Shown here in pieces: positions 1-61,975 of a stretch of 61,975 bases of DNA. A program made the position numbers and the translations under genes. Within the stretch, counting starts at the first letter, position 1. Every line of letters begins with the position of its first letter. Source of the DNA: a virus; the IMG/VR virus record IMGVR_UViG_3300042807_000369; one strand, 5' to 3'. Under the pieces are notes generated by a model, which was given only the letters and a program-made list of their open reading frames with translations, searched no databases and had not been told where the DNA came from.

Positions 1-3908
<3,908 letters not shown>

Positions 3909-3965: not shown

Positions 3966-6305
3966 ATGGCAATCGAAAAAGCAATGAACCAACTGCCCAT
4001 GCTCGAGGTGGTCATCGGCGGCGGGGGCATTCCAGCGCCTCAGTCCGACATCGAAATCATCATCGAAGAGGATGGCGGTGCCACTGTGGAGATGGGCGAG
4101 AAGGACGCCGAGGAAGTAGACTTCTACGCCAACCTGGCGGAGGTCATTGACCCGGACGAATTGGTCGGCGTGGGCCTTGAAGTATCAGCCTTGTTCGAAG
4201 CTGACAAGGGCTCGCGCTCCGACTGGGAGTCCATGTACGCCAAGGGCCTGGACCTTTTGGGCTTTCGCATGGAAGAGCGCACCAAACCCTTCCGTGGCGC
4301 GGCCGGTGCAACGCACCCCATGCTGACTGAAGCCATCATCCAGTTCCAGGCACAGGCTTTTAAGGAGCTCATGCCCGCTGGCGGCCCTGTTCGCAGCCAG
4401 ATCATGGGCAAGGAAACGGTGGAAAAGTTCCAGCAAGCCGGTCGCGTGCAGGATTTCATGAACTACCAGATCACCACGGTGATGGAAGAGTACACGCCGG
4501 AGTTCGACCAGCAGCTTTTCTACACTGGCTACGGTGGGTCGACCTTCAAGAAGGTCTACTACGACTACCAATTGGGCCGCATGGTGTCCAAATTGTGCCT
4601 GGCAGACGACGTTTACATCCCGTACAACGGCTCAAGCGTCGTGTCCCAGTGCCCACGGCTCACGCACCGCATCGCAATGGACTCCAACGAGTACAAAAAA
4701 CGCGCGGTGGCCGGCGAATACCTGGATGTGGTGGCGGATACGTATGCTACGCCTACCGATCCAAGCCAAATTCAGGCCGCAGTGGACAAAATCACCGGCA
4801 TTCAGCCCACCACGGACGTGGGCGAGGTGTTTTTGCTGGAGCAACTGGTCGATTTAGACATTCCAGGCTTTGAAGATACGGACGAAGACGGCAAACCAAC
4901 AGGTGTGAAGCTCCCATACGTCGTCACACTGGTAGAAGACAGCTTAAAAGTCGTCGGAATCCGTCGAAATTGGAAAGAAAACGACGAAAAGCGCCTGCGA
5001 CGCAACTATTACGTGCACTACGTGCTTGTCGAAGGCCCTGGAGCCTATGGTTTGGGCTTTGTGCACCTCATCGGGGGCCTCGGCAAGGCCGCAACAAGCG
5101 CTTTGCGCCAGTTGATTGACGCCGGAACGCTCGCCAACCTGCCTGCAGGCTTCAAAGCCAAAGGAGCACGGATCGCGGACGACTCCGACCCCATCCAACC
5201 GGGTGAATGGCGAGACATTGACGCCGGTGGTGCGGAACTTTCTGCTTCGCTGCTGCCATTGCCGTACAAAGAGCCTAGCCAGGTGCTGTTTGCGCTGATG
5301 GGCTTCCTGGTTGACTCTGGTAAGCGCTTGTCCAGTACTGCAGACATGCAGGTGGGCGACGGCAACCAGTACGCACAGGTGGGAACGACCTTGGCACTGC
5401 TCGAGCGCGGCTCCATGGTCATGTCCAGCATCCACAAACGACTGCATTACGCACAGACGTTGGAGTTCCGCCTGCTGTTTGAGGGGTTTGGCGAGTACAT
5501 GCCTGACGAGTACCCCTACGAGGTCCCCGGCGCCAGCCGCAAGATCAAGAAGGCGGACTTCAACACCATGGTCAGCGTGCAGCCTGTTGCTGACCCTAAC
5601 ATTTTTAGCTCCGCACAGCGTATTCAAATCGCGCAGATGCAGTTGCAGTTGGCCCAAAGCGCTCCAAACATGCACAACATGTACGAGGCCTACTACCGCA
5701 TGTATGCAGCGCTCAACATCCGCGACATCGACGGCGTGCTGTTGGCACAGAACACCAATTCGCCTCGCGACCCAGCGTCGGAGAACAGTGACGTGCTCAA
5801 CGGGATGAAGCTCAAGGCCTTTGCCGGACAACAGCACGACGCGCACATCGCAACGCACCTGATGATGGGCCTGTCGCCCATCCTGCATGCCAACCCAATG
5901 GCAGCGGCGGAATTGCAGAAGCACATTTTGGATCATGTTCGCTTGAAAGCGGAGGAAGACGTGGAAGCCGAGTTGTTCAAGACTTATGGCACCGATCCAG
6001 ATCAAATGGTGTCTGCTATCCAGAAGGAAGGCATGGTTGCGATTAAGATCGCGGTGTATATGCAAGAAGTTCGCACAATGCAGGAGACACTGGCTGGGGG
6101 CGACGAGGGACCTGATCCGTTGGTCAAGCTCAAAGAGGCTGAGATTCAACAACGTGCCCAAAATGACCAAGCCAAGATTGCTATTGACCAGCAGCGCCTG
6201 ACTTTGGATCAACAAAAGCAGCAAGAGAACATGCAAATTAACCGCCAGAAGCTGCAACTGCAGCAGGCTAAGCTTAATCAGCCCGGAGGCCAATATGCCG
6301 CTTAA
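3966..6305 (+). CDS. Portal protein (putative)
   Basis: A 779-aa ORF with RBS-like aaggaa upstream, placed at the head of the morphogenesis block. It has an acidic N-terminus and a long Gln-rich C-terminal coiled coil (DQQRLTLDQQKQQENMQINRQKLQLQQAKL) reminiscent of P22-type portal barrels. The call rests on size and position; there is no motif-level proof. Confidence 0.7.
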   Translation: MAIEKAMNQLPMLEVVIGGGGIPAPQSDIEIIIEEDGGATVEMGEKDAEEVDFYANLAEVIDPDELVGVGLEVSALFEADKGSRSDWESMYAKGLDLLGFRMEERTKPFRGAAGATHPMLTEAIIQFQAQAFKELMPAGGPVRSQIMGKETVEKFQQAGRVQDFMNYQITTVMEEYTPEFDQQLFYTGYGGSTFKKVYYDYQLGRMVSKLCLADDVYIPYNGSSVVSQCPRLTHRIAMDSNEYKKRAVAGEYLDVVADTYATPTDPSQIQAAVDKITGIQPTTDVGEVFLLEQLVDLDIPGFEDTDEDGKPTGVKLPYVVTLVEDSLKVVGIRRNWKENDEKRLRRNYYVHYVLVEGPGAYGLGFVHLIGGLGKAATSALRQLIDAGTLANLPAGFKAKGARIADDSDPIQPGEWRDIDAGGAELSASLLPLPYKEPSQVLFALMGFLVDSGKRLSSTADMQVGDGNQYAQVGTTLALLERGSMVMSSIHKRLHYAQTLEFRLLFEGFGEYMPDEYPYEVPGASRKIKKADFNTMVSVQPVADPNIFSSAQRIQIAQMQLQLAQSAPNMHNMYEAYYRMYAALNIRDIDGVLLAQNTNSPRDPASENSDVLNGMKLKAFAGQQHDAHIATHLMMGLSPILHANPMAAAELQKHILDHVRLKAEEDVEAELFKTYGTDPDQMVSAIQKEGMVAIKIAVYMQEVRTMQETLAGGDEGPDPLVKLKEAEIQQRAQNDQAKIAIDQQRLTLDQQKQQENMQINRQKLQLQQAKLNQPGGQYAA

Positions 6306-52894: not shown

Positions 52895-52930
52895 AGCGCA
52901 GAGCATGCGGATGGGACAAGGGCTCGTGGT

Positions 52931-52990
52931 CCACGGATCACGGGCTTTTGTACTTTTGGGGTATAGAAAGGACCACGGACCACGGACCGA
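52931..52990. repeat. CCACGGA heptamer repeats
   Basis: Copies at 52931, 52973 and 52980, plus degenerate neighbours (tCACGGg, CCGAGGG). Confidence 0.7.
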
Positions 52991-53061
52991 GGGCAAATTT
53001 CGTCATTTACATAGACTTTTTTTGACTCATCATGTTTTTTTTATTTTTTTTGTGAGATTTG

Positions 53062-53147
53062 GTGTAATAGACGTAATGGTGTAATAAGTCAATGAAATCA
53101 ATGGGTTATGAGAACACAGTACATTACACATAGTCAAGAAGTGTAAT
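53062..53147. repeat. GTGTAAT iteron-like repeats (3 direct, 1 inverted, 1 variant)
   Basis: GTGTAAT at 53062, 53079 and 53141; ATTACAC at 53123; ACGTAAT at 53071. Confidence 0.75.
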
Positions 53148-53251
53148 TCTCATAAAATGCGCGCGCAGACCTTTTTTGAAAAAAAAAAAACATACTCTTC
53201 CCTAAAAAAGTCTAACTAAAACCCTGAATTTGACATATTGATTGCGTTGAC

Positions 53252-53268
53252 TGTGCACTTGTTGCACA
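53252..53268. promoter_or_regulatory. Operator-like palindrome TGTGCA-N5-TGCACA
   Basis: A perfect 6-bp inverted repeat 9 nt upstream of ATG 53277. It overlaps a possible TTGACA(53230)-N18-TGCACT promoter. Confidence 0.35.
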
Positions 53269-53276
53269 ATGTAGCC

Positions 53277-53495
53277 ATGAAACTCGAAAAGAACATCCCT
53301 TTGCCCGGTGGCGTTGACCCCCGAGAGCGTTACCCCTTCCCAGATATGGCCGTGGGGGATAGCTTTTTGGTGCTAGACGCTACGTGGATCAAGAATTTGC
53401 GCAGCGCGGCGTACATGTACTCGCGCAGGCATCCTGGCACCAGGTTCACGTGCCGCCGGCATGGCGAAGGCTGGCGGCTGTGGAGGGTGGCTTGA
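53277..53495 (+). CDS. Small conserved phage protein preceding terS (72 aa)
   Basis: An internal ATG. The pattern IPLP......RYPFPDMAVGDSF.V........SAAY......PG.RF..R....G.RLWRV is familiar from phage packaging regions. There is no obvious SD, so the start is uncertain. Confidence 0.5.
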   Translation: MKLEKNIPLPGGVDPRERYPFPDMAVGDSFLVLDATWIKNLRSAAYMYSRRHPGTRFTCRRHGEGWRLWRVA

Positions 53496-54166
53496 TGGCT
53501 AGTTTAGACGAGAAGTTTTTGGCGGGAAAACGTCTTGGAGGCCGCCCGGCGTCCGTGGAAGAGCGCATCACTGGCCCGGTTAGACCCTACAAGCCCCGTA
53601 CTTTGTCGCCGCAGGAGTGGAAGTTTGTGGAAGAGTTTGTGGCAGGGGATGGGCATGTCACCCTGAAAGAGGCCGCCCTACGTGCCGGGTATGGCGATAC
53701 GTGGGCCAAGAGCCGCGCACGGGAGTTGACTGACCCAGACAAGAGTCCACACATTGTTGCCGCGATTCAAGAACGGCGCAGGGAATTGGGCGAAAAGTAT
53801 GCCACCACGTTTGAGCGGCATATGCGCGACCTACAAATCATCCGCGATCAGGCCCTAGCTGCGGGGGCTTATGGTGCTGCTGTTCAGGCGGAATACCGCC
53901 GAGGGCAGGCTTTGGGCACGATCTACATCGACCGCAAAGAGATCAGGCACGGCACGATTGACTCCATGAGTAAAGAAGAGGTGCAGCGCAAGTTGGACGA
54001 GATCAAGCGCCTGTATGGGGGCCAAGCCGGGCCCATTGTGGACGTGACCCCCAAGCAGATCGAAGAAGAACCCGAAGAGGAAGAACCAGATGGCCCTGAA
54101 ACCGGAAGCGACCCTGTACAAGAGGGTCAGGGAAAATATCCCAAACTGCCATTTCACCCGGATTGA
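53495..54166 (+). CDS. terS: Terminase small subunit (putative)
   Basis: LSPQEWKFVEEFVAGDGHVTLKEAALRAGYGDTWAKSRARELT matches the HTH pattern of Terminase_2-type small subunits (Lt..q..F..eY...gn...Aa..AGYs...A...a..Ll). It has a coiled-coil middle and an acidic C-terminus. TGATG overlap upstream. Confidence 0.65.
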   Translation: MASLDEKFLAGKRLGGRPASVEERITGPVRPYKPRTLSPQEWKFVEEFVAGDGHVTLKEAALRAGYGDTWAKSRARELTDPDKSPHIVAAIQERRRELGEKYATTFERHMRDLQIIRDQALAAGAYGAAVQAEYRRGQALGTIYIDRKEIRHGTIDSMSKEEVQRKLDEIKRLYGGQAGPIVDVTPKQIEEEPEEEEPDGPETGSDPVQEGQGKYPKLPFHPD

Positions 54167-54509
54167 ATCCCGTGTGAACCTGGGCATCCCGGACTGCCTG
54201 TTGGCATTCCCGCACGGGGTGTTTGTGATGGTGGAGCTCAAGGTCGTCAAGCGGGGCCGCAAAGTGGCTTTATCACCCCATCAGGTGGCTTTTCATATCA
54301 AGCACGCTGACCTTAGATGTCCGACCTACATCTTGGTTCAGTATTACCCGCCGGGGGCTATGCAAGCGAGTAAGTCCGAGTTGCTCCTGTATTGTGGGGA
54401 GCAGGCTTTGGATGTAGCGCGGCTAGGAATTGACACCCCGGCCTTGGCCCGTTGGCCGTGGACGGGGGTGTCGTGGGCTGAGATGCGAAAACATTTAGTG
54501 GACAGTTGA
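54090..54509 (+). CDS. VRR-NUC / PD-(D/E)XK-type nuclease (putative)
   Basis: RIESRVNLGIPDCLLAFPHGVFVMVELKVVKRGRKVALSPHQVAFH fits G.PD....(n)..ElK....(l)s..Q. The only ATG gives a 77-nt overlap with terS. Confidence 0.55.
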   Translation: MALKPEATLYKRVRENIPNCHFTRIESRVNLGIPDCLLAFPHGVFVMVELKVVKRGRKVALSPHQVAFHIKHADLRCPTYILVQYYPPGAMQASKSELLLYCGEQALDVARLGIDTPALARWPWTGVSWAEMRKHLVDS

Positions 54510-55296: not shown

Positions 55297-55320
55297 AACG
55301 GCCCCTGAAGGGGCCGTTTT
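55297..55320. terminator. Bidirectional intrinsic terminator between convergent units
   Basis: AACGGCCCC-tgaa-GGGGCCGTT followed by TTTA, located between 54817..55152 (+) and 55345..55533 (-). Confidence 0.7.
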
Positions 55321-55344
55321 ACTTGAGGCAGGGGTTAGGGCTGT

Positions 55345-55533
55345 CTACTGCTTAATTACGGGCTTAATGCGTAATTCGCTACGGTCTACGGCTATTCCCG
55401 CGCGGGAGCATTCAAGCAAGTGGTCGTCAATTCCCTGTTGCGCTTGTAGGGCAGTAGAAAACGTCAATTCCTTTTCGTCCTCAGTCCACACGTTTTCCCA
55501 CCCATAAATGAATCGGGTCTGCACCTCAAACAC
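55345..55533 (-). CDS. Island ORF 17 (62 aa), hypothetical
   Basis: A track ORF with a GTG start that overlaps the upstream stop by 8 nt. It is the last gene before the terminator. Confidence 0.5.
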   Translation of the reverse strand: MFEVQTRFIYGWENVWTEDEKELTFSTALQAQQGIDDHLLECSRAGIAVDRSELRIKPVIKQ

Positions 55534-55705
55534 GGTTGGCCTCCGTGTCTATTTCGATGGACTCAATGTCCCATGCCCCATCATCCCGGTAGTAGTCTTG
55601 GTCAACCTGCTTCCAAGCCAAAGCCTCGGCCTCATCCTCATTCTCGGCCTCAATGGTGAGGTTGATGTAGGAGGTGCGCTTCAATTCGATCTGGTAAGTT
55701 TTCAT
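55526..55705 (-). CDS. Island ORF 16 (59 aa), acidic; paralogue of ORF 15
   Basis: Hand-translated as MKTYQIELKRTSYINLTIEAENEDEAEALAWKQVDQDYYRDDGAWDIESIEIDTEANRV. The start sits in the conserved GAGACAGCATGA junction. Confidence 0.5.
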   Translation of the reverse strand: MKTYQIELKRTSYINLTIEAENEDEAEALAWKQVDQDYYRDDGAWDIESIEIDTEANRV

Positions 55706-55875
55706 GCTGTCTCTTCAATCAGTTCAATGTCGCAAACATCGCCCTCACACTGCACACAGGCTCGGGTTGGGTCGAACCAGTCAAGGGCCGTGGCCCCCGC
55801 CTCTTCTTTGCTTGAGGCCTCCACCTCGATGGTCTGCCAATAGGACATCACCACTTCAACTTTGTATTTACTCAT
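55702..55875 (-). CDS. Island ORF 15 (57 aa)
   Basis: Hand-translated as MSKYKVEVVMSYWQTIEVEASSKEEAGATALDWFDPTRACVQCEGDVCDIELIEETA. It has a conserved junction at both ends. Confidence 0.5.
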   Translation of the reverse strand: MSKYKVEVVMSYWQTIEVEASSKEEAGATALDWFDPTRACVQCEGDVCDIELIEETA

Positions 55876-56051
55876 GCTGTCTCTCCTTGTTTAAACACCT
55901 CTTCAGTGTTAAGGTCAACGAACGGGAACTCATCATTCAAAAACGAATTGTCCACATTGATGAGTTCAAGCCTATTGCCTGCACTCCAAACAAATACATT
56001 CGCATCAAGGGGCAATGCACTCAATGCAGCGAGTAGGTCTTGTACTTTCAT
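55872..56051 (-). CDS. Island ORF 14 (59 aa)
   Basis: Hand-translated as MKVQDLLAALSALPLDANVFVWSAGNRLELINVDNSFLNDEFPFVDLNTEEVFKQGETA. ATGA coupling at both ends. Confidence 0.5.
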   Translation of the reverse strand: MKVQDLLAALSALPLDANVFVWSAGNRLELINVDNSFLNDEFPFVDLNTEEVFKQGETA

Positions 56052-56221
56052 TTACTCCGTCCTTCCTTACGGCCTTGTTCAAAAAGGCGCACATAGTCTT
56101 CGCGCTTCTGCGACTGCAACCCCTTTAAACTTTCGTGAAAGGTCATCCACAACCTTAGGGCACGGGGCCCCCTGGCTGTTTCGTAGCGGTAGCCAAGATT
56201 GATTAGTTCTGATTCGGTCAT
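56048..56221 (-). CDS. Island ORF 13 (57 aa), basic
   Basis: Hand-translated as MTESELINLGYRYETARGPRALRLWMTFHESLKGLQSQKREDYVRLFEQGRKEGRSK. ATGA coupling. Confidence 0.45.
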   Translation of the reverse strand: MTESELINLGYRYETARGPRALRLWMTFHESLKGLQSQKREDYVRLFEQGRKEGRSK

Positions 56222-56364
56222 GACAAGGCCCAGATAGTCAAGATGTACATGAAGATGGTAGTCAGAATTGCCACCATGAAGTCAAAGGCGGCTTGTGCCC
56301 GCTTCTGTCTGCGTTCCAGAGTGAACTGTTCACGCATAGTGAGGGTGTGCTTGTAATATTTCAT
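56218..56364 (-). CDS. Island ORF 12 (48 aa), single-TM peptide
   Basis: Hand-translated as MKYYKHTLTMREQFTLERRQKRAQAAFDFMVAILTTIFMYILTIWALS. Conserved junction at the start. Confidence 0.45.
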   Translation of the reverse strand: MKYYKHTLTMREQFTLERRQKRAQAAFDFMVAILTTIFMYILTIWALS

Positions 56365-56561
56365 GCTGTTTCCCCTTTATCAACTGACACCTCTTCATTG
56401 TAGGCAAAAGTGCTTGCAACAGGGTCTTCCATCTCTTCCCCATTTTTATAAACAGCTATCCATAAGCCCTCATTGACAGACAGTATGCGGACAGAAAAGC
56501 CCTCAACGTCAAACCATGCTGCTCCCTCTTCCAACACATAATCATCATCTTTTAAGTTCAT
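56361..56561 (-). CDS. Island ORF 11 (66 aa)
   Basis: A track ORF that ends ...KGETA in the conserved junction. Confidence 0.55.
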   Translation of the reverse strand: MNLKDDDYVLEEGAAWFDVEGFSVRILSVNEGLWIAVYKNGEEMEDPVASTFAYNEEVSVDKGETA

Positions 56562-56740
56562 GCTGTTTCTCCCCGTTGTTCGCGCAGCGCGAGTTGCTCA
56601 ATCATGTCATTACCGCGTTCAATCAGAGTGTCTTCAATGTGTCTGCTATCGACATATTGAAGTTCTTCAGGACTCCAGATAACCACAAGAAACCCTGCAT
56701 CTCGCATTTGGTATAGTGCGTTAATCCATTCTTGTTTCAT
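56558..56740 (-). CDS. Island ORF 10 (60 aa)
   Basis: A track ORF that ends ...RGETA in the conserved junction. Confidence 0.55.
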   Translation of the reverse strand: MKQEWINALYQMRDAGFLVVIWSPEELQYVDSRHIEDTLIERGNDMIEQLALREQRGETA

Positions 56741-56940
56741 GATGTAACCTTTCTTAATGAAAATGTGTAGCTAGTCCCGTCAAGGTGATAATCCCGGCTT
56801 TCGCAATTGATATAGCGGCATATACGCAGTTTCCCGCCAATACCAAATTTAACTCTAGCCTGACGTAAGGCCTCCCGCCATGTAGTCGCTAAGACCTCTT
56901 TATGCCATGTTCCGTGATCTGAAAATAAGAAGTAGGTCAT
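56737..56940 (-). CDS. Island ORF 9 (67 aa)
   Basis: A track ORF with ATGA coupling. Confidence 0.55.
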   Translation of the reverse strand: MTYFLFSDHGTWHKEVLATTWREALRQARVKFGIGGKLRICRYINCESRDYHLDGTSYTFSLRKVTS

Positions 56941-57233
56941 GCTGTATCCCCTAATTGAATGTATTCCAAAACCTGTTTCATACCGTCAGCAGACACTGAC
57001 CATTCAGGGACACCTCCATCAAGGCAAAGCCCCCTTCCGTATCCCCCATTCTCTGTCAGGGTAGAAACATAGTATCTAGATACAAATTGCCCCCTTCCCA
57101 TAAAGTCAGGGAAGTCATAGCGGCTGTCATAGAACTCCACCATTGGGGCGCTGTCATTTGTAAGACAATCTTTGCGCCCGTACTTGTCTCCCGTATTGAC
57201 AATGCGGACATTAAATTTTTCAATTTTTATCAT
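56937..57233 (-). CDS. Island ORF 8 (98 aa), conserved small protein
   Basis: A track ORF. The pattern VEFYDSRYDF....GRGQFVSRYYVSTL......GLCLDGGVPEW recalls a family seen on phages and plasmids. Confidence 0.6.
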   Translation of the reverse strand: MIKIEKFNVRIVNTGDKYGRKDCLTNDSAPMVEFYDSRYDFPDFMGRGQFVSRYYVSTLTENGGYGRGLCLDGGVPEWSVSADGMKQVLEYIQLGDTA

Positions 57234-57460
57234 GCTGTCTTCTCCAATAATTCCCGTAAGTTTTTTGCGGTATGACGATAGGTTTTCCCGTTATGACAAG
57301 CAGTTACACCCCCTTTGTCATTCGTTATGACGTAGACACGCCTGATGTTTCTTCCGTCTCCCCGTATATCGGCAAAGTACGTGTACCCCTTCATAGGGTA
57401 TGACACACTATTACGTGTGTTAACAGTCTCACAAAGATTGTCAATGGTTGTTTTACGCAT
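57230..57460 (-). CDS. Island ORF 7 (76 aa)
   Basis: The start is set at ATG 57460, which follows AAGAGG and lies 4 nt after the upstream stop. The track extension to 57565 would overlap its neighbour by 100 nt. Confidence 0.55.
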   Translation of the reverse strand: MRKTTIDNLCETVNTRNSVSYPMKGYTYFADIRGDGRNIRRVYVITNDKGGVTACHNGKTYRHTAKNLRELLEKTA

Positions 57461-57464
57461 GGTG

Positions 57465-57815
57465 TCAACCTCTTGGCCCATATGAACGAGATTCATCAGT
57501 GGCGCAATTTTTGGCCTCTTCTCCCCGTTCAATTGCATCAAAGACAATTGACTTGTCATAGTCACTTGTCACACTTGGACAGGGATAATGTCCTGATAGA
57601 CACTCGAAACACTCCTGAAAAAACTGTACATAGTCATACGCGGGCCCATTACGTTTTTCCCACTCTTCTAGCGTCATAGTGTCTTCAATTTGGTCTTCAA
57701 GTACTCTAACCTTTTCTTCCAATTCCACAATTTGGGCCAATAGGTCAGCCGTGCGAACGTCTCCCGTTAGATACGCGAGTTGTTCTTGGTCTTGAATGGT
57801 GTATGCGGCATTCAT
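57465..57815 (-). CDS. Island ORF 6 (116 aa), acidic coiled-coil N-terminus, Cys-containing C-terminus
   Basis: A track ORF with AAGGAG RBS. Confidence 0.6.
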   Translation of the reverse strand: MNAAYTIQDQEQLAYLTGDVRTADLLAQIVELEEKVRVLEDQIEDTMTLEEWEKRNGPAYDYVQFFQECFECLSGHYPCPSVTSDYDKSIVFDAIERGEEAKNCATDESRSYGPRG

Positions 57816-58288
57816 GTCAATGCTCCTTCTTCCGTAAATTCATAGTCATTTGCCCGTATTGATTCGACAATTGCTTCATCACTAAAGTAGTAGTCAATGT
57901 CCTTTGACACTGTTGACACAAATGCTTCAATTGCAGTCTCAAAGGCGTGATTTGCGTCTCCTGTCCTTTTGAATTCATTAAAAAAGGTGTAACGTAGGTC
58001 ACAATCAAAGCAAAACCCTGTCGGCATTGCTTCCCTGTCAAATGAAGACAGTTTTACCCCTCTAAAGTGTCTTGTTGTTGCGTCTGTAGAGACAAATGCG
58101 CGATAGTCATTCGACAGGCAATAGTCTGTAACTTTTACGTTAAATTCATCACAAAAAGCCCTTAGACTGTCTTTGCATTCAGTAAACCAAGGGTATTTAG
58201 TTATTTCCCGCATTTTTTCTATAGCCTTTTCTTTTGCCCCTCCCGGCAATTCATCAAAGGCGTAAATTGTGGTTTCGATTGTTCGCAT
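57812..58288 (-). CDS. Island ORF 5 (158 aa), conserved phage/plasmid-type protein
   Basis: The start is set at ATG 58288, after GAGGGG. The N-terminal YAFDELPGGAKEKAIEKMRE and C-terminal IRANDYEFTEEG motifs recall a family common on mobile elements, including leading regions. I cannot name it securely. Confidence 0.55.
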   Translation of the reverse strand: MRTIETTIYAFDELPGGAKEKAIEKMREITKYPWFTECKDSLRAFCDEFNVKVTDYCLSNDYRAFVSTDATTRHFRGVKLSSFDREAMPTGFCFDCDLRYTFFNEFKRTGDANHAFETAIEAFVSTVSKDIDYYFSDEAIVESIRANDYEFTEEGALT

Positions 58289-58298
58289 GGTGCGCCCC

Positions 58299-58559
58299 TC
58301 AAATTGATTTGACGTTAAAAAACCGCGTTTCTTCGTCTTCGTAACCCGATAGAAACGCACAAATACACGCATTCAAGGCCCTATACTTTGACAAGTCTCC
58401 CGTGTCAAAGTCTTTGCGAAACCTAAGGCCCATTTCCCGTGAGACTTTCCGAATAGCCCCTAATTCACTCTTCGCGTGAACCTTGAAACGGGTTACCCAT
58501 GAATAATTTGCTTCGTCTCCAAAAGTGTCTGTCACTTCGATATAAAAAATGTTTTTCAT
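58299..58559 (-). CDS. Island ORF 4 (86 aa), conserved small protein
   Basis: A track ORF. The motif EVTDTFGDEANYSWVTRF is familiar from mobile-element small proteins. Confidence 0.6.
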   Translation of the reverse strand: MKNIFYIEVTDTFGDEANYSWVTRFKVHAKSELGAIRKVSREMGLRFRKDFDTGDLSKYRALNACICAFLSGYEDEETRFFNVKSI

Positions 58560-58753
58560 AATGTCACTCCTTGAATGAATCGGTTAGGTTCAATACAGAT
58601 ACACACTATGCGTTCAAATTTGGGCGCATCAACCGTGTGCACAATTACGTTTCTTCCCGTGTGTGTGTAACTTTCCACACGTACGGTTTTCCCGTGTACT
58701 TGAATGATTTGGCCAATTTTGTATTGGGCCTTAGGTATAAATGCGAATCTCAT
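58556..58753 (-). CDS. Island ORF 3 (65 aa)
   Basis: A track ORF with ATGA coupling. Confidence 0.55.
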   Translation of the reverse strand: MRFAFIPKAQYKIGQIIQVHGKTVRVESYTHTGRNVIVHTVDAPKFERIVCICIEPNRFIQGVTL

Positions 58754-59022
58754 AGGTTCACCTCTACAATTGTTTTCTGGTTTCCATGAACAACGTACGT
58801 TGTTCCAATGTTAGAAAAAATGGCGCAATACACTCTTCGCCATTTTTGGTCAATGGTTCGCACCATGTAGCGTGTAGGTATCTTTGCCCCATAGCCACTA
58901 GCGGTATAGGACAGGCCCCTTTTTTGCCACTCCAACTCATGAACCCGTACGGAAGGCCCATTACATGGAAGGCGAACCAATTGCCCCATAAGGGGCCCTT
59001 CTTTGACAGTTTCAAAATTCAT
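58750..59022 (-). CDS. Island ORF 2 (90 aa), conserved small protein
   Basis: A track ORF. The motif TASGYGAKIPTRYMV......WRRVYCAIFSNIGT is familiar from phage and plasmid genes. Confidence 0.6.
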   Translation of the reverse strand: MNFETVKEGPLMGQLVRLPCNGPSVRVHELEWQKRGLSYTASGYGAKIPTRYMVRTIDQKWRRVYCAIFSNIGTTYVVHGNQKTIVEVNL

Positions 59023-59033
59023 GGCGTACCTCT

Positions 59034-59324
59034 TTAACGTAGTTCGCGAGACGGGATATATCCATACTCCCGCATGAATTCGTTAACCGTTAGATTTTTG
59101 GCCTTGTAAGTTTCGCCACACTTCCAAGATTCGACAGCATTGGCCCCATATCGCGGTTTAGTGGTGCGGATGTTGATGTAACGCATCTCGGGACGGCTAT
59201 GCGCTGCCCGTTCAATTTGTTCCGCTTGCTGCCAAGTCTCGCATTCAATAATCAATTTATTGGTCTTGCATTGGGCAGCGCCCCAACCAGACATAAATTT
59301 GTCGGTCATAGTTACGTAGAGCAT
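59034..59324 (-). CDS. Island ORF 1 (96 aa), first gene of the inverted island
   Basis: A track ORF with AGGAGAA RBS. It carries the motif TMTDKFMSGWGAA. Confidence 0.6.
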   Translation of the reverse strand: MLYVTMTDKFMSGWGAAQCKTNKLIIECETWQQAEQIERAAHSRPEMRYINIRTTKPRYGANAVESWKCGETYKAKNLTVNEFMREYGYIPSRELR

Positions 59325-59351
59325 GAGGGTTCTCCTGTTGTTGAGGCCTCT

Positions 59352-59381
59352 ACCTTAAATCAACTCATGTCAACTTGTCAA
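59352..59381 (-). promoter_or_regulatory. Possible promoter of the inverted island
   Basis: The minus strand reads TTGACA-N18-TAAGGT about 30 nt upstream of ATG 59324. The -35 is part of a GTTGA(C/T) triplet (gagTTGACaagTTGACatgagTTGAT). Confidence 0.35.
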
Positions 59382-59469
59382 CTCTTTTTGTGAGGGTATC
59401 CGAAAATTTTTCTAACTATGCGTTTTTTGCATAACCTTCCCTTCCCGGTTTTTTCTAAACCCGTCTCGC

Positions 59470-59709
59470 GGTTCGCGGTTGGTTCACCTTTGAAGTGTGT
59501 GGCGTGTATCACGTTACATGGCGCATGGTTCGCGGTTCGCGCATGGTGTAGCGTGTTTCGCGTCTCCCGGTTCGCGGTTCGCGTCTCCCGGTTCGCGATT
59601 CCTGGAGGGCTTGCGTACGGTTCGCGGTTCGCGGTTTACGCATGGTGTCTCGCGTCTCATGGTGCATGGTGCATGGTGCATGGTGCATGGTTCGCGGGCC
59701 CCGGTTCAT
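59470..59709. repeat. Dense heptamer arrays: GGTTCGC (9 perfect copies, 4 tandem doublets) and CATGGTG (5 tandem)
   Basis: GGTTCGC at 59470, 59527/59534, 59569/59576, 59590, 59619/59626 and 59689, plus variants at 59481, 59633 and 59703. CATGGTG x4 plus CATGGTT lie at 59658-59692. CGTCTC(C/G)CGGTTCGC recurs. The region is non-coding and lies between divergent units. Confidence 0.9.
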
Positions 59710-59806
59710 GCGCCCCGGCGCGTAAGTGAGTACCCACTCACCCCGGGGCCAGAAAAAAGGGCCCTGTCGCGGGCTGCGCGGGCATTTGCCCGATTTCACA
59801 CGCTAG

Positions 59807-59820
59807 GTTTCACGTGAAAC
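59807..59820. promoter_or_regulatory. Perfect 14-bp palindrome GTTTCACGTGAAAC
   Basis: Seen directly, about 90 nt upstream of the terL start. It is a candidate protein-binding site. Confidence 0.4.
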
Positions 59821-59911
59821 ACTTTTCAGGCCCAAAGGAAAAAGGGCCCCCTTTGTCAACAAAGTCAACTTGTGTCAAAATTTATGCAAATTTCAAACGA
59901 AACGGACTTCC

Positions 59912-61375
59912 ATGATCCCTGACGATGTAGACGCTGACCGGCTGCGCCTTGAGTACCGGCTCGCGCAGCTTGAAACGCAAGAAAAGGCCAAGACCAACTT
60001 CATCGACTTCGTTCGGTACGTGTGGCCCCAGGCCTTGATCGGTGAGCACCACAACGTGATGGCCAAAGCTTTTGACCGGATTGCCAACGGCACTTTGAAG
60101 CGCTTGATCATCAACATGCCGCCTCGGCACACGAAGTCTGAGTTTGCGTCCTATCTGCTGCCGGCGTATCTCATGGGCCGTGATCCGCGAACCAAGGCCA
60201 TTGAGGCGACGCACAACAGCGAGCTCGCCGTGCGCTTTGGCCGCAAGGTGCGTGACCTGATGGACATGGACACGTACAAGGAGGTGTTCCCGGATGTGAC
60301 CTTGAAGCAGGACAGCAAGGCGGCTGGCCGGTGGGACACGAACCTGGGCGGGGAATACTTTGCTGTTGGTGTGGGCGGCGCGATGACGGGCCGTGGTGCG
60401 AACGTCTTGATCATTGACGACCCGCATTCGGAGCAGGACGCGATGAGTGAGTTGGCGTTGGACAACTGCTGGGAGTGGTACAGCTCTGGCCCGCGTACGC
60501 GACTCCAGCCGGGTGGTGCGGTGGTGATTGTGATGACGCGCTGGGGGACGAAGGATTTGACGGCGAGGTTGATCAAGGCGCAGAAATCGCGGAACGCGGA
60601 CCAGTGGGAGGTGATCGAGTTCCCTGCCATCTTGCCGTCTGGCCGACCACTTTGGCCGGGGTTTTGGAAGCTGGAGGAGTTGGAGGGTGTCAAAGCCAGC
60701 TTGTCAGTCCAGAAGTGGAACGCGATGTATCAGCAGCAGCCCACGAACGACGAGGGTGCCATTCTGAAGAGGGAGTGGTGGAAAGTCTGGCCAAAGGACG
60801 ATCCGCCTATTGTTAACTATATTATTCAATCTATGGACACGGCGTACTCCAAGAAGGAGACGGCGGACTATTCTGTCATCACGACGTGGGGCGTGTTTTA
60901 TTTGAACGAGGATGCGGGGGCGTCGATCATCTTGCTCGATGTCAAGCGCGGGCGCTGGGACTTTCCAGAGCTCAAGCGTATTGCGAAGGAGCAGTATGAC
61001 ATTTGGCAGCCGGACAACGTGTTGATTGAGGCGAAGGCCACGGGCACAACGCTGCAGCAGGAGCTGAGGAAGATGAGCATCCCGGTGACGATGTATTCGC
61101 CGGGTGGGCGGCGCGCGGGCCAGGACAAGGTGTCCAGGGCCAACGCGATTGCGCCGGTGTTCGAGGCGGGGATGGTCTGGGCCCCGGACACGGAGTGGGC
61201 GGAGCTGTTGGTGGAGGAGTGTGCGGCGTTCCCGAACGGCGACAACGACGACATGGTGGACAGCACGGTGATGGCGATGGACAGGTTCCGGCGGGGCAAC
61301 TTTATCAGCTTGAACACGGACGATCAGGACGAGGGCAGTAGCGCGGAGGGCACACTTGTGCCGGAGTACTATTGA
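59912..61375 (+). CDS. terL: Terminase large subunit
   Basis: ATPase motifs LIINMPPRHTKSE (Walker A-like), NVLIIDDPHSEQD (Walker B) and VIVMTRW. Nuclease motifs IIQSMDTAYSKKETADYSV and FPNGDNDDMVDS. The first ATG is at 59912. The track start at 59870 is a non-ATG codon. Confidence 0.9.
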   Translation: MIPDDVDADRLRLEYRLAQLETQEKAKTNFIDFVRYVWPQALIGEHHNVMAKAFDRIANGTLKRLIINMPPRHTKSEFASYLLPAYLMGRDPRTKAIEATHNSELAVRFGRKVRDLMDMDTYKEVFPDVTLKQDSKAAGRWDTNLGGEYFAVGVGGAMTGRGANVLIIDDPHSEQDAMSELALDNCWEWYSSGPRTRLQPGGAVVIVMTRWGTKDLTARLIKAQKSRNADQWEVIEFPAILPSGRPLWPGFWKLEELEGVKASLSVQKWNAMYQQQPTNDEGAILKREWWKVWPKDDPPIVNYIIQSMDTAYSKKETADYSVITTWGVFYLNEDAGASIILLDVKRGRWDFPELKRIAKEQYDIWQPDNVLIEAKATGTTLQQELRKMSIPVTMYSPGGRRAGQDKVSRANAIAPVFEAGMVWAPDTEWAELLVEECAAFPNGDNDDMVDSTVMAMDRFRRGNFISLNTDDQDEGSSAEGTLVPEYY

Positions 61376-61412: not shown

Positions 61413-61975
61413 ATGAACAGAGTGTATTCAACAGCTGAGATGAATGCTCCGGGGATCAGTGAGAGCACCCGTAGACAGATGGAGCAGAATAATGCTGCTG
61501 TGCGCGCTTTTCAACAACAGCAGGCTGCGGAAAAGGCTTTAAGAGATGCTCGGAATGCAGCAAGTGCTGCTTTGACTGCAAGAAGACCAATTACAAAAAC
61601 GCCGATTGTAAGGACGCCGATTGTAAGGACGCCGATTGTAAGGACGCCGATTGTAAGGACGCCTGCTCCGACTTCAAACCGGCCTGGGCAGGTTAATTCA
61701 AATATTCCTGCAGGAACGTCAGCTCTGCCTTCGTACACTCCGCCTTCGTACACTCCGCCTTCGTACACTCCGCCTTCAACCCTGCCAGGACAAGTAAATT
61801 CGGGCAGCGGGTCGACGATTGGCACATCCATGGGTGATACGTTCCGGTTGCCTACGGGCAGCGGGTCGACGATTGGCACATCCATGGGTGATACGTTCCG
61901 GTTGCCTACGGGCAGCGGGTCGACGATTGGCACATCCATGGGTGATACGTTCCGGTTGCCTACGGGCAGCGGGTC
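61413..61975 (+). CDS. Giant repeat-rich protein, 5' portion (runs off the window end, continues at nt 1)
   Basis: The ATG lies 5 nt after AGGAG and 38 nt after the terL stop. The frame is open for 187 codons to the window end. The sequence is MNRVYSTAEMNAPGISESTRRQMEQNNAAVRAFQQQQAAEKALRDARNAASAALTARRPITK followed by PIVRT x4, PSYTP x3 and then the 18-aa repeat. It is absent from the track because it has no stop. Confidence 0.65.
   Translation, partial: MNRVYSTAEMNAPGISESTRRQMEQNNAAVRAFQQQQAAEKALRDARNAASAALTARRPITKTPIVRTPIVRTPIVRTPIVRTPAPTSNRPGQVNSNIPAGTSALPSYTPPSYTPPSYTPPSTLPGQVNSGSGSTIGTSMGDTFRLPTGSGSTIGTSMGDTFRLPTGSGSTIGTSMGDTFRLPTGSG
61599..61658 (+). repeat. In-frame 15-nt tandem repeat acgccgattgtaagg (TPIVR) x4
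   Basis: Four identical units. Confidence 0.95.
61728..61772 (+). repeat. In-frame 15-nt tandem repeat ccttcgtacactccg (PSYTP) x3
   Basis: Three identical units. Confidence 0.95.
61803..61975 (+). repeat. In-frame 54-nt tandem repeat, 3.2 copies (same array as 1..325)
   Basis: Units start at 61803, 61857, 61911 and 61965, and all are the D-variant. Confidence 0.95.

What the first reader, a model, noticed from the sequence alone, without database searches (positions are those of the whole stretch)
59470..59709. Dense heptamer arrays (GGTTCGC x9 + variants; CATGGTG x5) in the divergent region upstream of terL
Seen: within 240 nt, GGTTCGC occurs nine times perfectly, four times as head-to-tail doublets (59527, 59569, 59619, and 59470 with a degenerate partner). 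It is often preceded by CGTCTC(C/G)C. Spacings between doublets of 42 and 21 nt are multiples of about two helical turns. A separate perfect tandem run of CATGGTG (59658-59692) merges into the last GGTTCGC. The repeats create spurious ORFs on both strands. The array lies between the island promoter and terL. Inference: this is a multi-site protein-binding array. Candidates are the pac/terS recognition region, a second origin (iterons), or a regulator array controlling the divergent island and terL promoters. I cannot match the heptamers to any system I know.
Basis: partly seen in the sequence, partly recalled or inferred. Interest (0 to 1): 0.65.

Follow-up and report, generated by a model that had tools for sequence, protein, structure and literature searches.

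The report
Hypervariable heptamer-repeat tract before terL
The heptamer repeats are real and mark a non-coding stretch that almost every relative of this freshwater phage keeps just upstream of its DNA-packaging gene, but the repeat units, their number and their spacing change even between near-identical phages, so it behaves like a fast-evolving satellite or spacer rather than a precisely built protein-binding array.

Summary
Nine of the window's 13 GGTTCGC copies lie at 59470-59695, all on the + strand, next to a CATGGTG x4.9 run. The whole of 59497-59727 keeps a 7-nt register, and an independent assembly has the identical sequence.

The tract is not unique to this phage. 54 of 56 distinct relatives (TerL 80-95% identical) carry 250-700 bp of strand-polar, GC-rich, A-poor short repeats at the same place. 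That place lies between a terminator and a conserved block (hairpins, the GTTTCACGTGAAAC palindrome, a promoter-like site) in front of terL.

Unit identity is not conserved: CCTGGTG and GTGGCCC dominate elsewhere. A window-lineage variant (L430) has near-identical flanks but 6/~14/6 copies of GGTTCGC/CGCGTCT/CATGGTG instead of 9/2/4.

The TerS helix-turn-helix region and the replication proteins stay conserved while the units change. A separate AT-rich region with GGTGTAA repeats upstream of terS is the better pac candidate.

Best reading: a slippage-driven heptad satellite that serves as a sequence-tolerant, promoter-free spacer or low-specificity pad in the late-operon control region. Multi-site binding, a Chi-like role and iterons remain possible but less likely. 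The closest analogue is the T7 CCTAAAG array. Interest is moderate.

The parts
59325..59442 (.). AT-rich divergent region holding the presumed promoter(s) of the leftward low-GC island. It contains GTCAACTTGT, which is repeated at 59864.
   Evidence: 97-100% identical in lineage variant L430
59443..59455 (+). Remnant (cccggttttttc) of the intrinsic terminator that ends the upstream + strand gene in relatives. It marks the left border of the homologous non-coding region.
59462..59487 (+). Leading units: CGTCTCGC, GGTTCGC, GGTTGGT, TCAC (includes GGTTCAC).
59491..59513 (+). Anchor TGAAGTGTGTGGCGTGTATCACG. It is homologous to the relatives' GTGAAcCGTGGCCCGCGTATCGCA and is itself in heptad register.
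59497..59601 (+). Heptad block 1: 15 consecutive 7-nt units (GCGGTTC, GCGTCTC, CCGGTTC, GTGTTTC and others). It holds five of the nine GGTTCGC copies (59527, 59534, 59569, 59576, 59590).
59616..59727 (+). Heptad block 2: 16 units (CGCGGTT, CATGGTG x4, CATGGTT, CCCGGTT and others). It includes the perfect CATGGTG x4.9 run at 59658-59691 and the conserved right-edge element CCCCGGTTCATGCGCC.
59722..59750 (+). Start of the clade-conserved block: GTAAGTGAGTACCCACTCAC (inverted repeat) followed by CCCCGGGGCC.
59778..59801 (+). GCGGGC-ATTT-GCCCG hairpin followed by ATTTCACAC. It is conserved at sequence level with no compensatory changes.
59807..59820 (.). Perfect palindrome GTTTCAC|GTGAAAC, a likely operator. 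It is conserved down to relatives with 60% TerL identity.
59841..59881 (+). AAAGGGCCCCCTTT palindrome overlapping a promoter-like site: TTGTCA, 17 nt, (TG)TCAAAAT.
59912..61375 (+). terL (487 aa), first gene of the late/structural operon.
   Evidence: (Terminase_6C)

Best explanation
What is shown: the window's array is the local version of a clade-wide hypervariable tract. This tract of short, strand-polar, mostly 7-nt-periodic repeats fills the distal part of a conserved non-coding region. In relatives, that region runs from the terminator of the variable 'cargo' module to the hairpin/palindrome/promoter block in front of terL.

The units are amplified from neighbouring conserved GC-rich motifs, for example the single-copy CCGGTTCGCGGGCC seen in relatives. 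They expand, contract and replace each other by replication slippage or unequal exchange. Even near-identical genomes therefore differ in unit type, number and spacing.

What persists is the position, a length of roughly 250-700 bp, high G+C, and a top strand almost free of A.

What is inferred: the tract works, if at all, through these bulk properties. It would be a sequence-tolerant spacer or insulator free of promoters and ORFs. Alternatively it would be a low-specificity landing pad that separates the end of the upstream unit from the operator/promoter block of the late packaging operon. It is tolerated because a headful-type packaging system puts little pressure on genome length. It is not a precisely phased set of specific protein sites.
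For: Position and presence are conserved. 54 of 56 distinct relatives have a heptamer with at least 5 copies in the 710 nt upstream (median 9.5), against 1 of 56 in an equal-length terL control. GC is 69% against 59%, and A is 12%.

The architecture is terminator, anchors, arrays, conserved block.

Unit identity is not conserved.

Many blocks are perfect tandem copies, which indicates recent amplification.

Lineage variant L430 has flanks 97-100% identical to the window. Its array has GGTTCGC 6 vs 9, CGCGTCT about 14 vs 2 and CATGGTG 6 vs 4, and lacks a 63-nt block. The L289 and L437 pair also differ in block numbers.

The seed motif is present as a single copy in L017, L029 and L036.

Phage DNA-binding candidates do not track the units. 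The TerS helix-turn-helix region is nearly invariant. Primase, helicase and PolA are 71-79% identical over their full length to DSL-LC04, which has different units.

There is no RNA family match, no covariation and no unusual folding.

Heptamer tandem repeats are common in viral contigs generally: 51 and 78 stretches for two arbitrary 4-heptamer patterns.

TerL's relatives are T1-like phages, cluster-B-size mycobacteriophages and Lactococcus phage ul36. From my own knowledge these are headful packagers, so length constraint is expected to be weak.
Against: Near-universal retention of several hundred non-coding bases in compact phage genomes suggests more than tolerance.

Strand polarity is extreme across the clade: CTGGTGG 184 vs 8, GTGGCCC 102 vs 9.

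The same short cores recur in many different flanks.

An AT-rich relative (L178) still has a GC-rich repeat or hairpin island before terL.

These points fit selection for some reader of the sequence, on a strand or a motif. No experiment or read-level data were available. Why any spacer would be needed here is not explained.
Confidence: 0.42

Rival explanations
1. The tract is a multivalent protein-binding platform. Many weak, partly degenerate sites (families GGTNCGC and CNTGGTG) would be bound cooperatively. The binder could be the ring-shaped SPP1/SF6-type TerS during packaging initiation. It could instead be a regulator of the late promoter, and in this window of the divergent island promoter, in the manner of heptad operators.
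For: The tract lies directly upstream of terL, and in distant relatives directly downstream of terS-nuclease. The TerS N-terminus resembles the SF6 G1P DNA-binding domain. For that TerS type, pac holds sets of direct repeats that differ between interchangeable phages, and binding is sequence-independent (PMC4737164), so the lack of covariation is not fatal. A 7-nt register dominates clade-wide, with lag peaks at 7, 14, 21 and 28. The window unit GGTTCGC grades into the operator half-site GTTTCAC through GGTTCAC and GTTTCGC. Both orientations of CCTGGT occur in some relatives, including the palindrome CCTGGTACCAGG.
Against: Unit number and spacing change freely between near-identical genomes. 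Periods of 9, 10, 12 and 15 nt also occur. A better pac-like region exists upstream of terS: AT-rich, with A/T tracts and GGTGTAA repeats enriched about 60-fold across 71 loci. L152 has no gap between nuclease and terL. The tract starts about 130 bp and ends about 430 bp upstream of the terL promoter-like site, and in relatives no promoter adjoins it on the left. No covarying phage protein was found.
Confidence: 0.25
2. The tract is a Chi-like, strand-polar array. It would be read by the host RecBCD/AddAB enzyme entering from a DNA end on the terL side, such as the end left free by terminase. It would switch off degradation and load RecA, so protecting and recycling concatemer DNA.
For: Polarity is strong and is in the 'active' orientation relative to terL. 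The commonest octamers, CCTGGTGG and CCTGGTGC, are one or two bases from E. coli Chi GCTGGTGG. L082 carries exact GCTGGTGG 25 times on the + strand and never on the - strand. The window's top strand is G/T-rich and A-poor. There is a precedent: Rec-less lambdoid phages cluster Chi in active orientation at the end left open by terminase, and the Pseudomonas Chi is GCTGGCGC (PMC12315714). No recognisable recombinase was found in the window.
Against: Several unrelated unit families sit in one tract. GGTTCGC and CGCGTCT resemble no known Chi. Phages with 95% identical TerL use different units. Overall G is about equal to C in relatives. About 20% of CCTGGT copies are reversed. The host is unknown, so its Chi could not be tested. 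Finding the same heptamer in unrelated phages is at baseline frequency. If pac lies upstream of terS, the geometry no longer works.
Confidence: 0.12
3. The repeats are replication-origin iterons bound by a phage initiator, with the adjacent AT-rich segment acting as the unwinding element.
For: The repeats are direct, polar and hypervariable between relatives. They lie next to AT-rich segments and an inverted-repeat module in relatives. My own knowledge supplies a precedent for short iterons: the phage P4 octamers.
Against: Units change without matching divergence of primase, helicase, PolA or the Pam3 gp33/gp34-like proteins. Copy number and spacing are unconstrained. The tract is far from the replication module at 38.8-45.2 kb. 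The inverted-repeat module is absent from the window.
Confidence: 0.06

Closest known systems
Phage T7 short-repeat array next to the terminal repeat (CCTAAAG units at the left end)
   Same: It is a non-coding, strictly one-strand array of a heptamer, with 11 exact copies in the first 340 nt and a regular period. It lies in the non-coding region beside the packaging and terminus signals and ahead of promoters. From my own knowledge, its function is still unclear.
   Different: The T7 units are AT-rich, spaced at 13 nt, and adjoin a defined 160-bp terminal repeat of a fixed-end genome. Here the units are GC-rich, mostly contiguous with a 7-nt period, and vary between close relatives. TerL similarity points to headful packaging. 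No terminal repeat is known for this phage.
SPP1/SF6 pac site (boxA/B/C direct repeats bound by the G1P small terminase)
   Same: The TerS is of the same structural type. In that system, direct repeats differ between related phages whose TerS proteins are interchangeable, and the DNA-binding domain binds non-specifically (PMC4737164).
   Different: SPP1 pac spans the terS promoters and gene start, is AT-rich and bent, and holds a few repeats. This tract is 5.3 kb downstream of terS, GC-rich and holds dozens of units. The SPP1-like features (A/T tracts, conserved GGTGTAA repeats) are found at 52.9-53.3 kb instead.
Terminally clustered Chi sites in Rec-module-less lambdoid phages (LLS, MD8)
   Same: Both are strand-polar short G/T-rich motifs concentrated at the map end adjoining the terminase genes, in the orientation read by RecBCD entering from that end (PMC12315714).
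   Different: There, 20-32 copies of the exact host Chi are spread over kilobases of coding DNA. Here, the copies are tandem, non-coding, of several unit families, and do not match any known Chi in the window.
Omega (pSM19035) heptad operators/centromeres (from my own knowledge)
   Same: Both have contiguous 7-bp units in direct and sometimes inverted orientation, in arrays of 7-10 or more.
   Different: Omega heptads are sequence-conserved and overlap promoters. Here the units are variable and lie 130-430 bp from the promoter-like site. No ribbon-helix-helix protein or ParA partner was identified.

Membership tests
TerS-recognised pac site (SPP1/SF6 type) | Lies at or next to the terS gene or promoter and contains the first packaging cut | tested here: not met
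   The tract is 5.3 kb downstream of the terS stop codon (5.7 kb to the terL start). The cut site cannot be mapped with these tools. A separate pac-like region lies directly upstream of terS.
TerS-recognised pac site (SPP1/SF6 type) | Repeats bound by TerS, or at least conserved or covarying with TerS | tested here: inconclusive
   The TerS helix-turn-helix region is invariant while the units differ. That is compatible only with non-specific binding as reported for G1P. Binding itself was not testable.
TerS-recognised pac site (SPP1/SF6 type) | Intrinsically bent, A/T-tract-rich DNA | tested here: not met
   The tract is 63% GC with 8% A in the window, and 69% GC in relatives.
Replication-origin iterons | Direct repeats whose sequence covaries with an initiator protein | tested here: not met
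   Replication proteins are 68-79% identical over their full length to DSL-LC04 despite different units.
Replication-origin iterons | Conserved number and phasing of repeats next to an AT-rich unwinding element | tested here: not met
   Number and spacing differ between window and L430 although the flanks are identical. An AT-rich segment is adjacent.
Chi cluster (RecBCD/AddAB control) | Motif equals the host's Chi, which is over-represented and skewed in the host genome | not testable with these tools
   Host unknown. The genome-contig scan gave only two MAG contigs of doubtful binning.
Chi cluster (RecBCD/AddAB control) | One-strand orientation facing a DNA end | tested here: inconclusive
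   Polarity is strong, but the position of any DNA end is unknown. About 20% of CCTGGT copies are reversed.
Omega-type heptad operator / RHH centromere | Contiguous 7-bp units of conserved sequence overlapping a promoter, plus a cognate RHH protein | tested here: not met
   A 7-nt register is present. However, the units are variable, other periods occur, and the tract lies 130-430 bp from the terL promoter-like site. No RHH protein was found among the searched neighbours.
T7-type terminal short-repeat array | Polar heptamer array in non-coding DNA | tested here: met
   Window; T7.
T7-type terminal short-repeat array | Adjoins a direct terminal repeat or fixed genome end | not testable with these tools
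   No read data. TerL relatives suggest headful packaging. Contig ends scatter from 14 to 1,000 nt upstream of terL with no fixed point.
Structured RNA / protein-coding gene | Rfam match, covariation or stable fold; or an ORF conserved in frame | tested here: not met
   (z-scores -1.4 to -1.5). The 7-nt period and indels that are not multiples of 3 rule out coding.

The most novel reading that the evidence does not exclude
The clade's polar arrays (CNTGGTG-type units and their neighbours) are Chi-like pads. They would sit on the non-packaged side of the packaging start. They would stop the host RecBCD enzyme and load RecA, so that each terminase cut primes recombination-dependent replication. 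Unit turnover would then track host switches. This would be a dedicated non-coding tandem 'Chi cassette', a form not described so far.
Probability: 0.12. Interest if true: 0.8.

Novelty: new variant of a known kind. Interest (0 to 1): 0.42.

Why it matters
The phage belongs to a large, uncultured freshwater sister group of the HTVC023P-type pelagiphages: 345 TerL relatives were confirmed in IMG/VR. That pelagiphage group is described as the most abundant known marine viral group (bioRxiv 10.1101/2019.12.14.876532).

Nearly all members keep a hypervariable repeat tract in front of the packaging gene. The tract breaks metagenomic assemblies: 23 of 80 contigs end within about 1 kb upstream of terL. 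It creates spurious ORFs. It could also serve as a strain-typing (VNTR-like) marker.

If the tract does have a reader, such as terminase, a late regulator or RecBCD, it would give a tractable case of a function that tolerates wholesale turnover of its sequence. It might also shed light on the long-unexplained T7-type repeat arrays.

If it is only a tolerated satellite, it shows how much slack headful phages allow in non-coding DNA.

Tried and rejected
1. DNA similarity to known phages: no match for the region.
2. Rfam: only sub-threshold chance hits.
3. RNA covariation in the conserved block: none, so I treat it as DNA-level sites.
4. Folding of either strand of the tract: z about -1.4, not unusual.
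5. TerS covariation: the helix-turn-helix region is invariant across different units.
6. Initiator covariation between the window and DSL-LC04: none.
7. Restriction-site avoidance as the reason for CCTGGTG changing to CATGGTG: the window shows no CCWGG depletion.
8. Host identification through bacterial genomes: only two MAG contigs, labelled Alphaproteobacteria and Verrucomicrobia, so not informative.
9. 'Same heptamer in unrelated phages implies a host-determined motif': (CATGGTG)x3 occurs in 8 viral stretches and (CNTGGTG)x3 in 51. A scrambled control, (CNGGTTG)x3, gives 78, so this is baseline. The GGTTCGC x3 scan was swamped by 15-nt-period repeats (3- and 5-multiples), most likely coding.
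10. Physical genome end from contig termini: the ends scatter from 14 to about 1,000 nt upstream of terL, as expected from repeat- or strain-induced assembly breaks.
11. The GT-rich inverted-repeat module of relatives (GTGTTTGTGA...TCACAAACAC) is absent from the window.
12. Literature: no paper found that describes the tract.
13. The first metagenome scan with a window-specific 26-mer found nothing.

Full report
**1. Observation**

GGTTCGC occurs 13 times in the whole window on both strands, against 10.3 expected. Nine of these lie between 59470 and 59695, all on the + strand. About 0.02 copies would be expected in a stretch of that size.

Three exact head-to-tail doublets are present, at 59527, 59569 and 59619, plus a degenerate one at 59470. 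CGTCTC(G/C)C precedes the unit three times. CATGGTG forms a perfect 4.9-copy tandem at 59658-59691 whose last copy runs into GGTTCGC.

The structure is more extensive than reported. 59497-59601 reads as 15 consecutive heptads. After a 14-nt linker, 59616-59727 reads as 16 more. Lag-7, lag-14 and lag-21 identities are 0.58, 0.50 and 0.47. An independent ENA assembly of 61,428 bp is identical over 59320-59915.

**2. Context in the window**

The window is a complete, circularly closed phage genome. Both ends share the same 54-bp tandem repeat.

- terL is at 59912-61375 (Terminase_6C).
- terS is at 53495-54166 (PHROG 51; 69% identical to the DSL-LC04 TerS).
- A small PD-(D/E)xK-like ORF follows terS.
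- A 4-kb low-GC island of small minus-strand ORFs ends at 59324.

The closest deposited phage is the metagenome-assembled DSL-LC04 (TerL 77-79%). Next come the HTVC023P-type pelagiphages. No paper I could find describes the repeats.

**3. The tract is clade-wide**

IMG/VR holds 345 confirmed TerL relatives, of which 80 were fetched. Among 56 distinct upstream regions, 54 contain a heptamer with at least 5 copies (median 9.5). Only 1 of 56 equal-length terL controls does. GC is 69% against 59%, and A is only 12% of the top strand.

The layout is conserved:
- the upstream + strand gene;
- a strong intrinsic terminator;
- GGTATCG and a module of about 113 nt ending in GTGAAcCGTGGCCCGCGTATCGCA;
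- array 1;
- a GT-rich inverted-repeat module;
- array 2;
- a conserved block of about 190 nt.

The conserved block holds GTAAGTGAG..CCCAC..CACCCCGGGGCC, the GCGGGC-TTTA-GCCCG hairpin followed by ATTTCACAC, the perfect palindrome GTTTCACGTGAAAC, AAAGGGCCCCCTTT, and a promoter-like TTGTCA-17-(TG)TCAAAAT just before the terL ATG.

The window keeps a remnant of the terminator (59443-59455), the anchor (59491-59513), one compact array and the whole conserved block. It lacks the GT-rich module. Its left part has been replaced by the island.

**4. The units are not conserved**

DSL-LC04 uses GGCCCGT, CGTGGCC and TGGGCCG. Most relatives use CCTGGTG(G/C), GGTGGCC and GTGGCCC. Others use GAGCTGG (25 copies in L082), CGCGATC or CCTCGAGC. 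Only loose families are shared: GGTNCGC occurs 200 times on the + strand and 41 on the - strand, in 48 of 56 loci, alongside CNTGGTG.

The window's GGTTCGC corresponds to a single-copy element, CCGGTTCGCGGGCC, at the right edge of the tract in L017, L029 and L036. The units therefore look like amplified local seeds.

The 7-nt period dominates clade-wide, with a mean lag profile peaking at 7, 14, 21 and 28. It is not universal: periods of 9, 10, 12 and 15 also occur.

Polarity is strong: CTGGTGG 184 vs 8, CCTGGTGC 168 vs 11, GTGGCCC 102 vs 9, GAGCTGG 65 vs 3. CCTGGT itself is 541 vs 128, and palindromic CCTGGTACCAGG occurs in L007 and L012.

**5. Turnover is fast**

Many blocks are perfect tandem copies, for example 6 x CCTGGTGGCCGTCGC in L017.

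The decisive case is L430, a JGI contig of the window's own lineage. The AT-rich promoter region, the anchor and the right edge are 97-100% identical to the window. The array between them differs:

| Unit | L430 | Window |
|---|---|---|
| GGTTCGC | 6 | 9 |
| CGCGTCT | about 14 | 2 |
| CATGGTG | 6 | 4 |

L430 also lacks a 63-nt block present in the window. The distant relatives L289 and L437 (TerL 60%) share the CATGGTG...CATGGTTC array. They too differ from each other in block numbers.

Exact unit number and the 42/21-nt spacings are therefore not constrained. What persists is position, approximate length, high GC and an A-poor top strand.

**6.

*(a) pac/TerS recognition.* The TerS N-terminal helix-turn-helix region (QEWKFVEEFVAGDGHVTLKEAALRAGY) is nearly invariant among phages with quite different units. 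It weakly matches the SF6 G1P DNA-binding domain (3zqp, 4zc3). For that TerS type, Greive et al. (PMC4737164) report non-specific binding and a pac site made of direct repeats at the terS promoter.

The window has exactly such a region at 52,895-53,280: AT-rich, with long A/T tracts and GGTGTAAT direct repeats. GGTGTAA occurs at 1.89 per kb on the + strand in the 700 nt upstream of terS across 71 loci, against 0.03 per kb elsewhere. One relative (L152) has no gap at all between the nuclease gene and terL. The tract is therefore not the best pac candidate.

*(b) Iterons.* Primase, helicase, PolA and the Pam3 gp33/gp34-like proteins align over their full length at 68-79% identity with DSL-LC04. 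No divergent domain appears.

*(c) Regulator array.* This cannot be excluded. In the window the unit grades into the operator half-site (GGTTCGC, GGTTCAC, GTTTCGC, GTTTCAC). However, the tract lies 130-430 bp from the terL promoter-like site. In relatives a terminator, not a promoter, lies on its left.

**7. Other readings**

*Chi-like reading.* The commonest octamers are one or two bases from E. coli Chi, and L082 carries exact Chi 25 times on the + strand and never on the - strand. The orientation is the 'active' one relative to the terminase genes. This matches the terminally clustered Chi sites of Rec-less lambdoid phages (PMC12315714).

Several points weigh against it:
- multiple unrelated unit families sit in one tract;
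- phages with 95% identical TerL use different units;
- GGTTCGC and CGCGTCT resemble no known Chi;
- the host is unknown;
- the geometry fails if pac lies upstream of terS.

I also tested whether the same heptamer in unrelated phages signals a host-determined motif. (CNTGGTG)x3 occurs in 51 viral stretches, but a scrambled control occurs in 78. That evidence is void.

*RNA or coding readings.* These are rejected (7-nt period).

**8. Comparison with known systems**

The nearest analogue is the T7 left-end array. There, CCTAAAG has 11 exact copies, all on one strand, with a 13-nt period, beside the terminal repeat. From my own knowledge its role is still unclear.

The differences are composition, contiguity, hypervariability and probably the packaging mode. 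TerL's relatives are T1-like phages, cluster-B-size mycobacteriophages and ul36, which I know as headful packagers. SPP1 pac, Chi clusters and omega heptads each share some features but fail at least one defining feature. The membership table gives the details.

**9. Verdict**

The finding is real and is part of a conserved genomic feature of a large uncultured phage clade. It is not the precisely phased binding array it appears to be in a single genome.

My best explanation (about 0.4) is a slippage-driven, strand-polar heptad satellite. It would act, if at all, through bulk properties as a promoter-free GC-rich spacer or low-specificity pad in the late-operon control region.

The alternatives are a multivalent binding platform (about 0.25), a Chi-like pad (about 0.12) and iterons (about 0.06). 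I rate it a new variant of a known kind, of moderate interest.

Noticed in passing
window 52895-53280: AT-rich non-coding region upstream of the small-ORF/terS operon. It has long A/T tracts, GGACCAC x2.7 and GGTGTAAT direct repeats. GGTGTAA is about 60-fold enriched, + strand only, in the 700 nt upstream of terS across 71 related loci. It is a better pac (SPP1-like) or promoter candidate than the terL-proximal tract.
   Followed up: partly
window 1-325 and 61801-61975 (also 741-895, 924-1212, 1224-1497, 2289-2392): Both window ends carry the same 54-bp tandem repeat, so the window is a circular assembly cut inside a repeat. The large ORF after terL (through 3908) is full of in-frame tandem repeats with periods of 15, 24, 39 and 54 nt. 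An independent assembly differs in total length by 547 bp, possibly because of these repeats.
   Followed up: partly
window 55300-59324 (- strand): Low-GC island (43-46% against 55% for the genome) of about 20 small minus-strand ORFs, mostly unknown PHROGs. It occupies the place where relatives have + strand cargo genes. Its right border falls inside the remnant of the relatives' terminator. Lineage variant L430 has a different first gene.
   Followed up: partly
window 54090-54509: Small PD-(D/E)xK-like ORF (GIPD...ELK motif; PHROG 2165/93) overlapping the 3' end of terS. It is conserved directly after terS in all relatives, including those where terL follows immediately.
   Followed up: partly
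window 59792-59820: Three TTTCAC half-sites (GATTTCACAC plus the perfect palindrome GTTTCAC|GTGAAAC) centred about 70 nt upstream of the predicted terL transcription start. The palindrome is conserved down to relatives with 60% TerL identity (L289). It is a likely operator of an unidentified late regulator.
   Followed up: partly
IMG/VR loci L295-L415: Tandem heptamer repeats are common in viral contigs in general. (CNTGGTG)x3 occurs in 51 stretches and the scrambled control (CNGGTTG)x3 in 78. By eye, most (CNTGGTG)x3 hits lie in apparently non-coding DNA; the control hits were not inspected. One group (L302, L304, L305, L313) pairs a GCTTGGT array with a TGTCACGCGTGACA palindrome.
   Followed up: no
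L178 13413-13473 and 11560-11760 (- strand reading): An AT-rich relative (TerL 60%) has a contig that ends in (TAGGTTCGCTTG)n, followed by several strong sigma-70-like promoters and small genes. It also has a GC-rich cluster of hairpins and repeats right before terL. So GC-rich elements at this position are kept even in an AT-rich genome.
   Followed up: no
L160 about 3970-4860; L159 and L161: The TerL matches start only at query residue 155-195. The L160 sequence shows an insertion with Hint- or HNH-like motifs inside terL, which suggests an intein or homing element in some relatives' terL.
   Followed up: no
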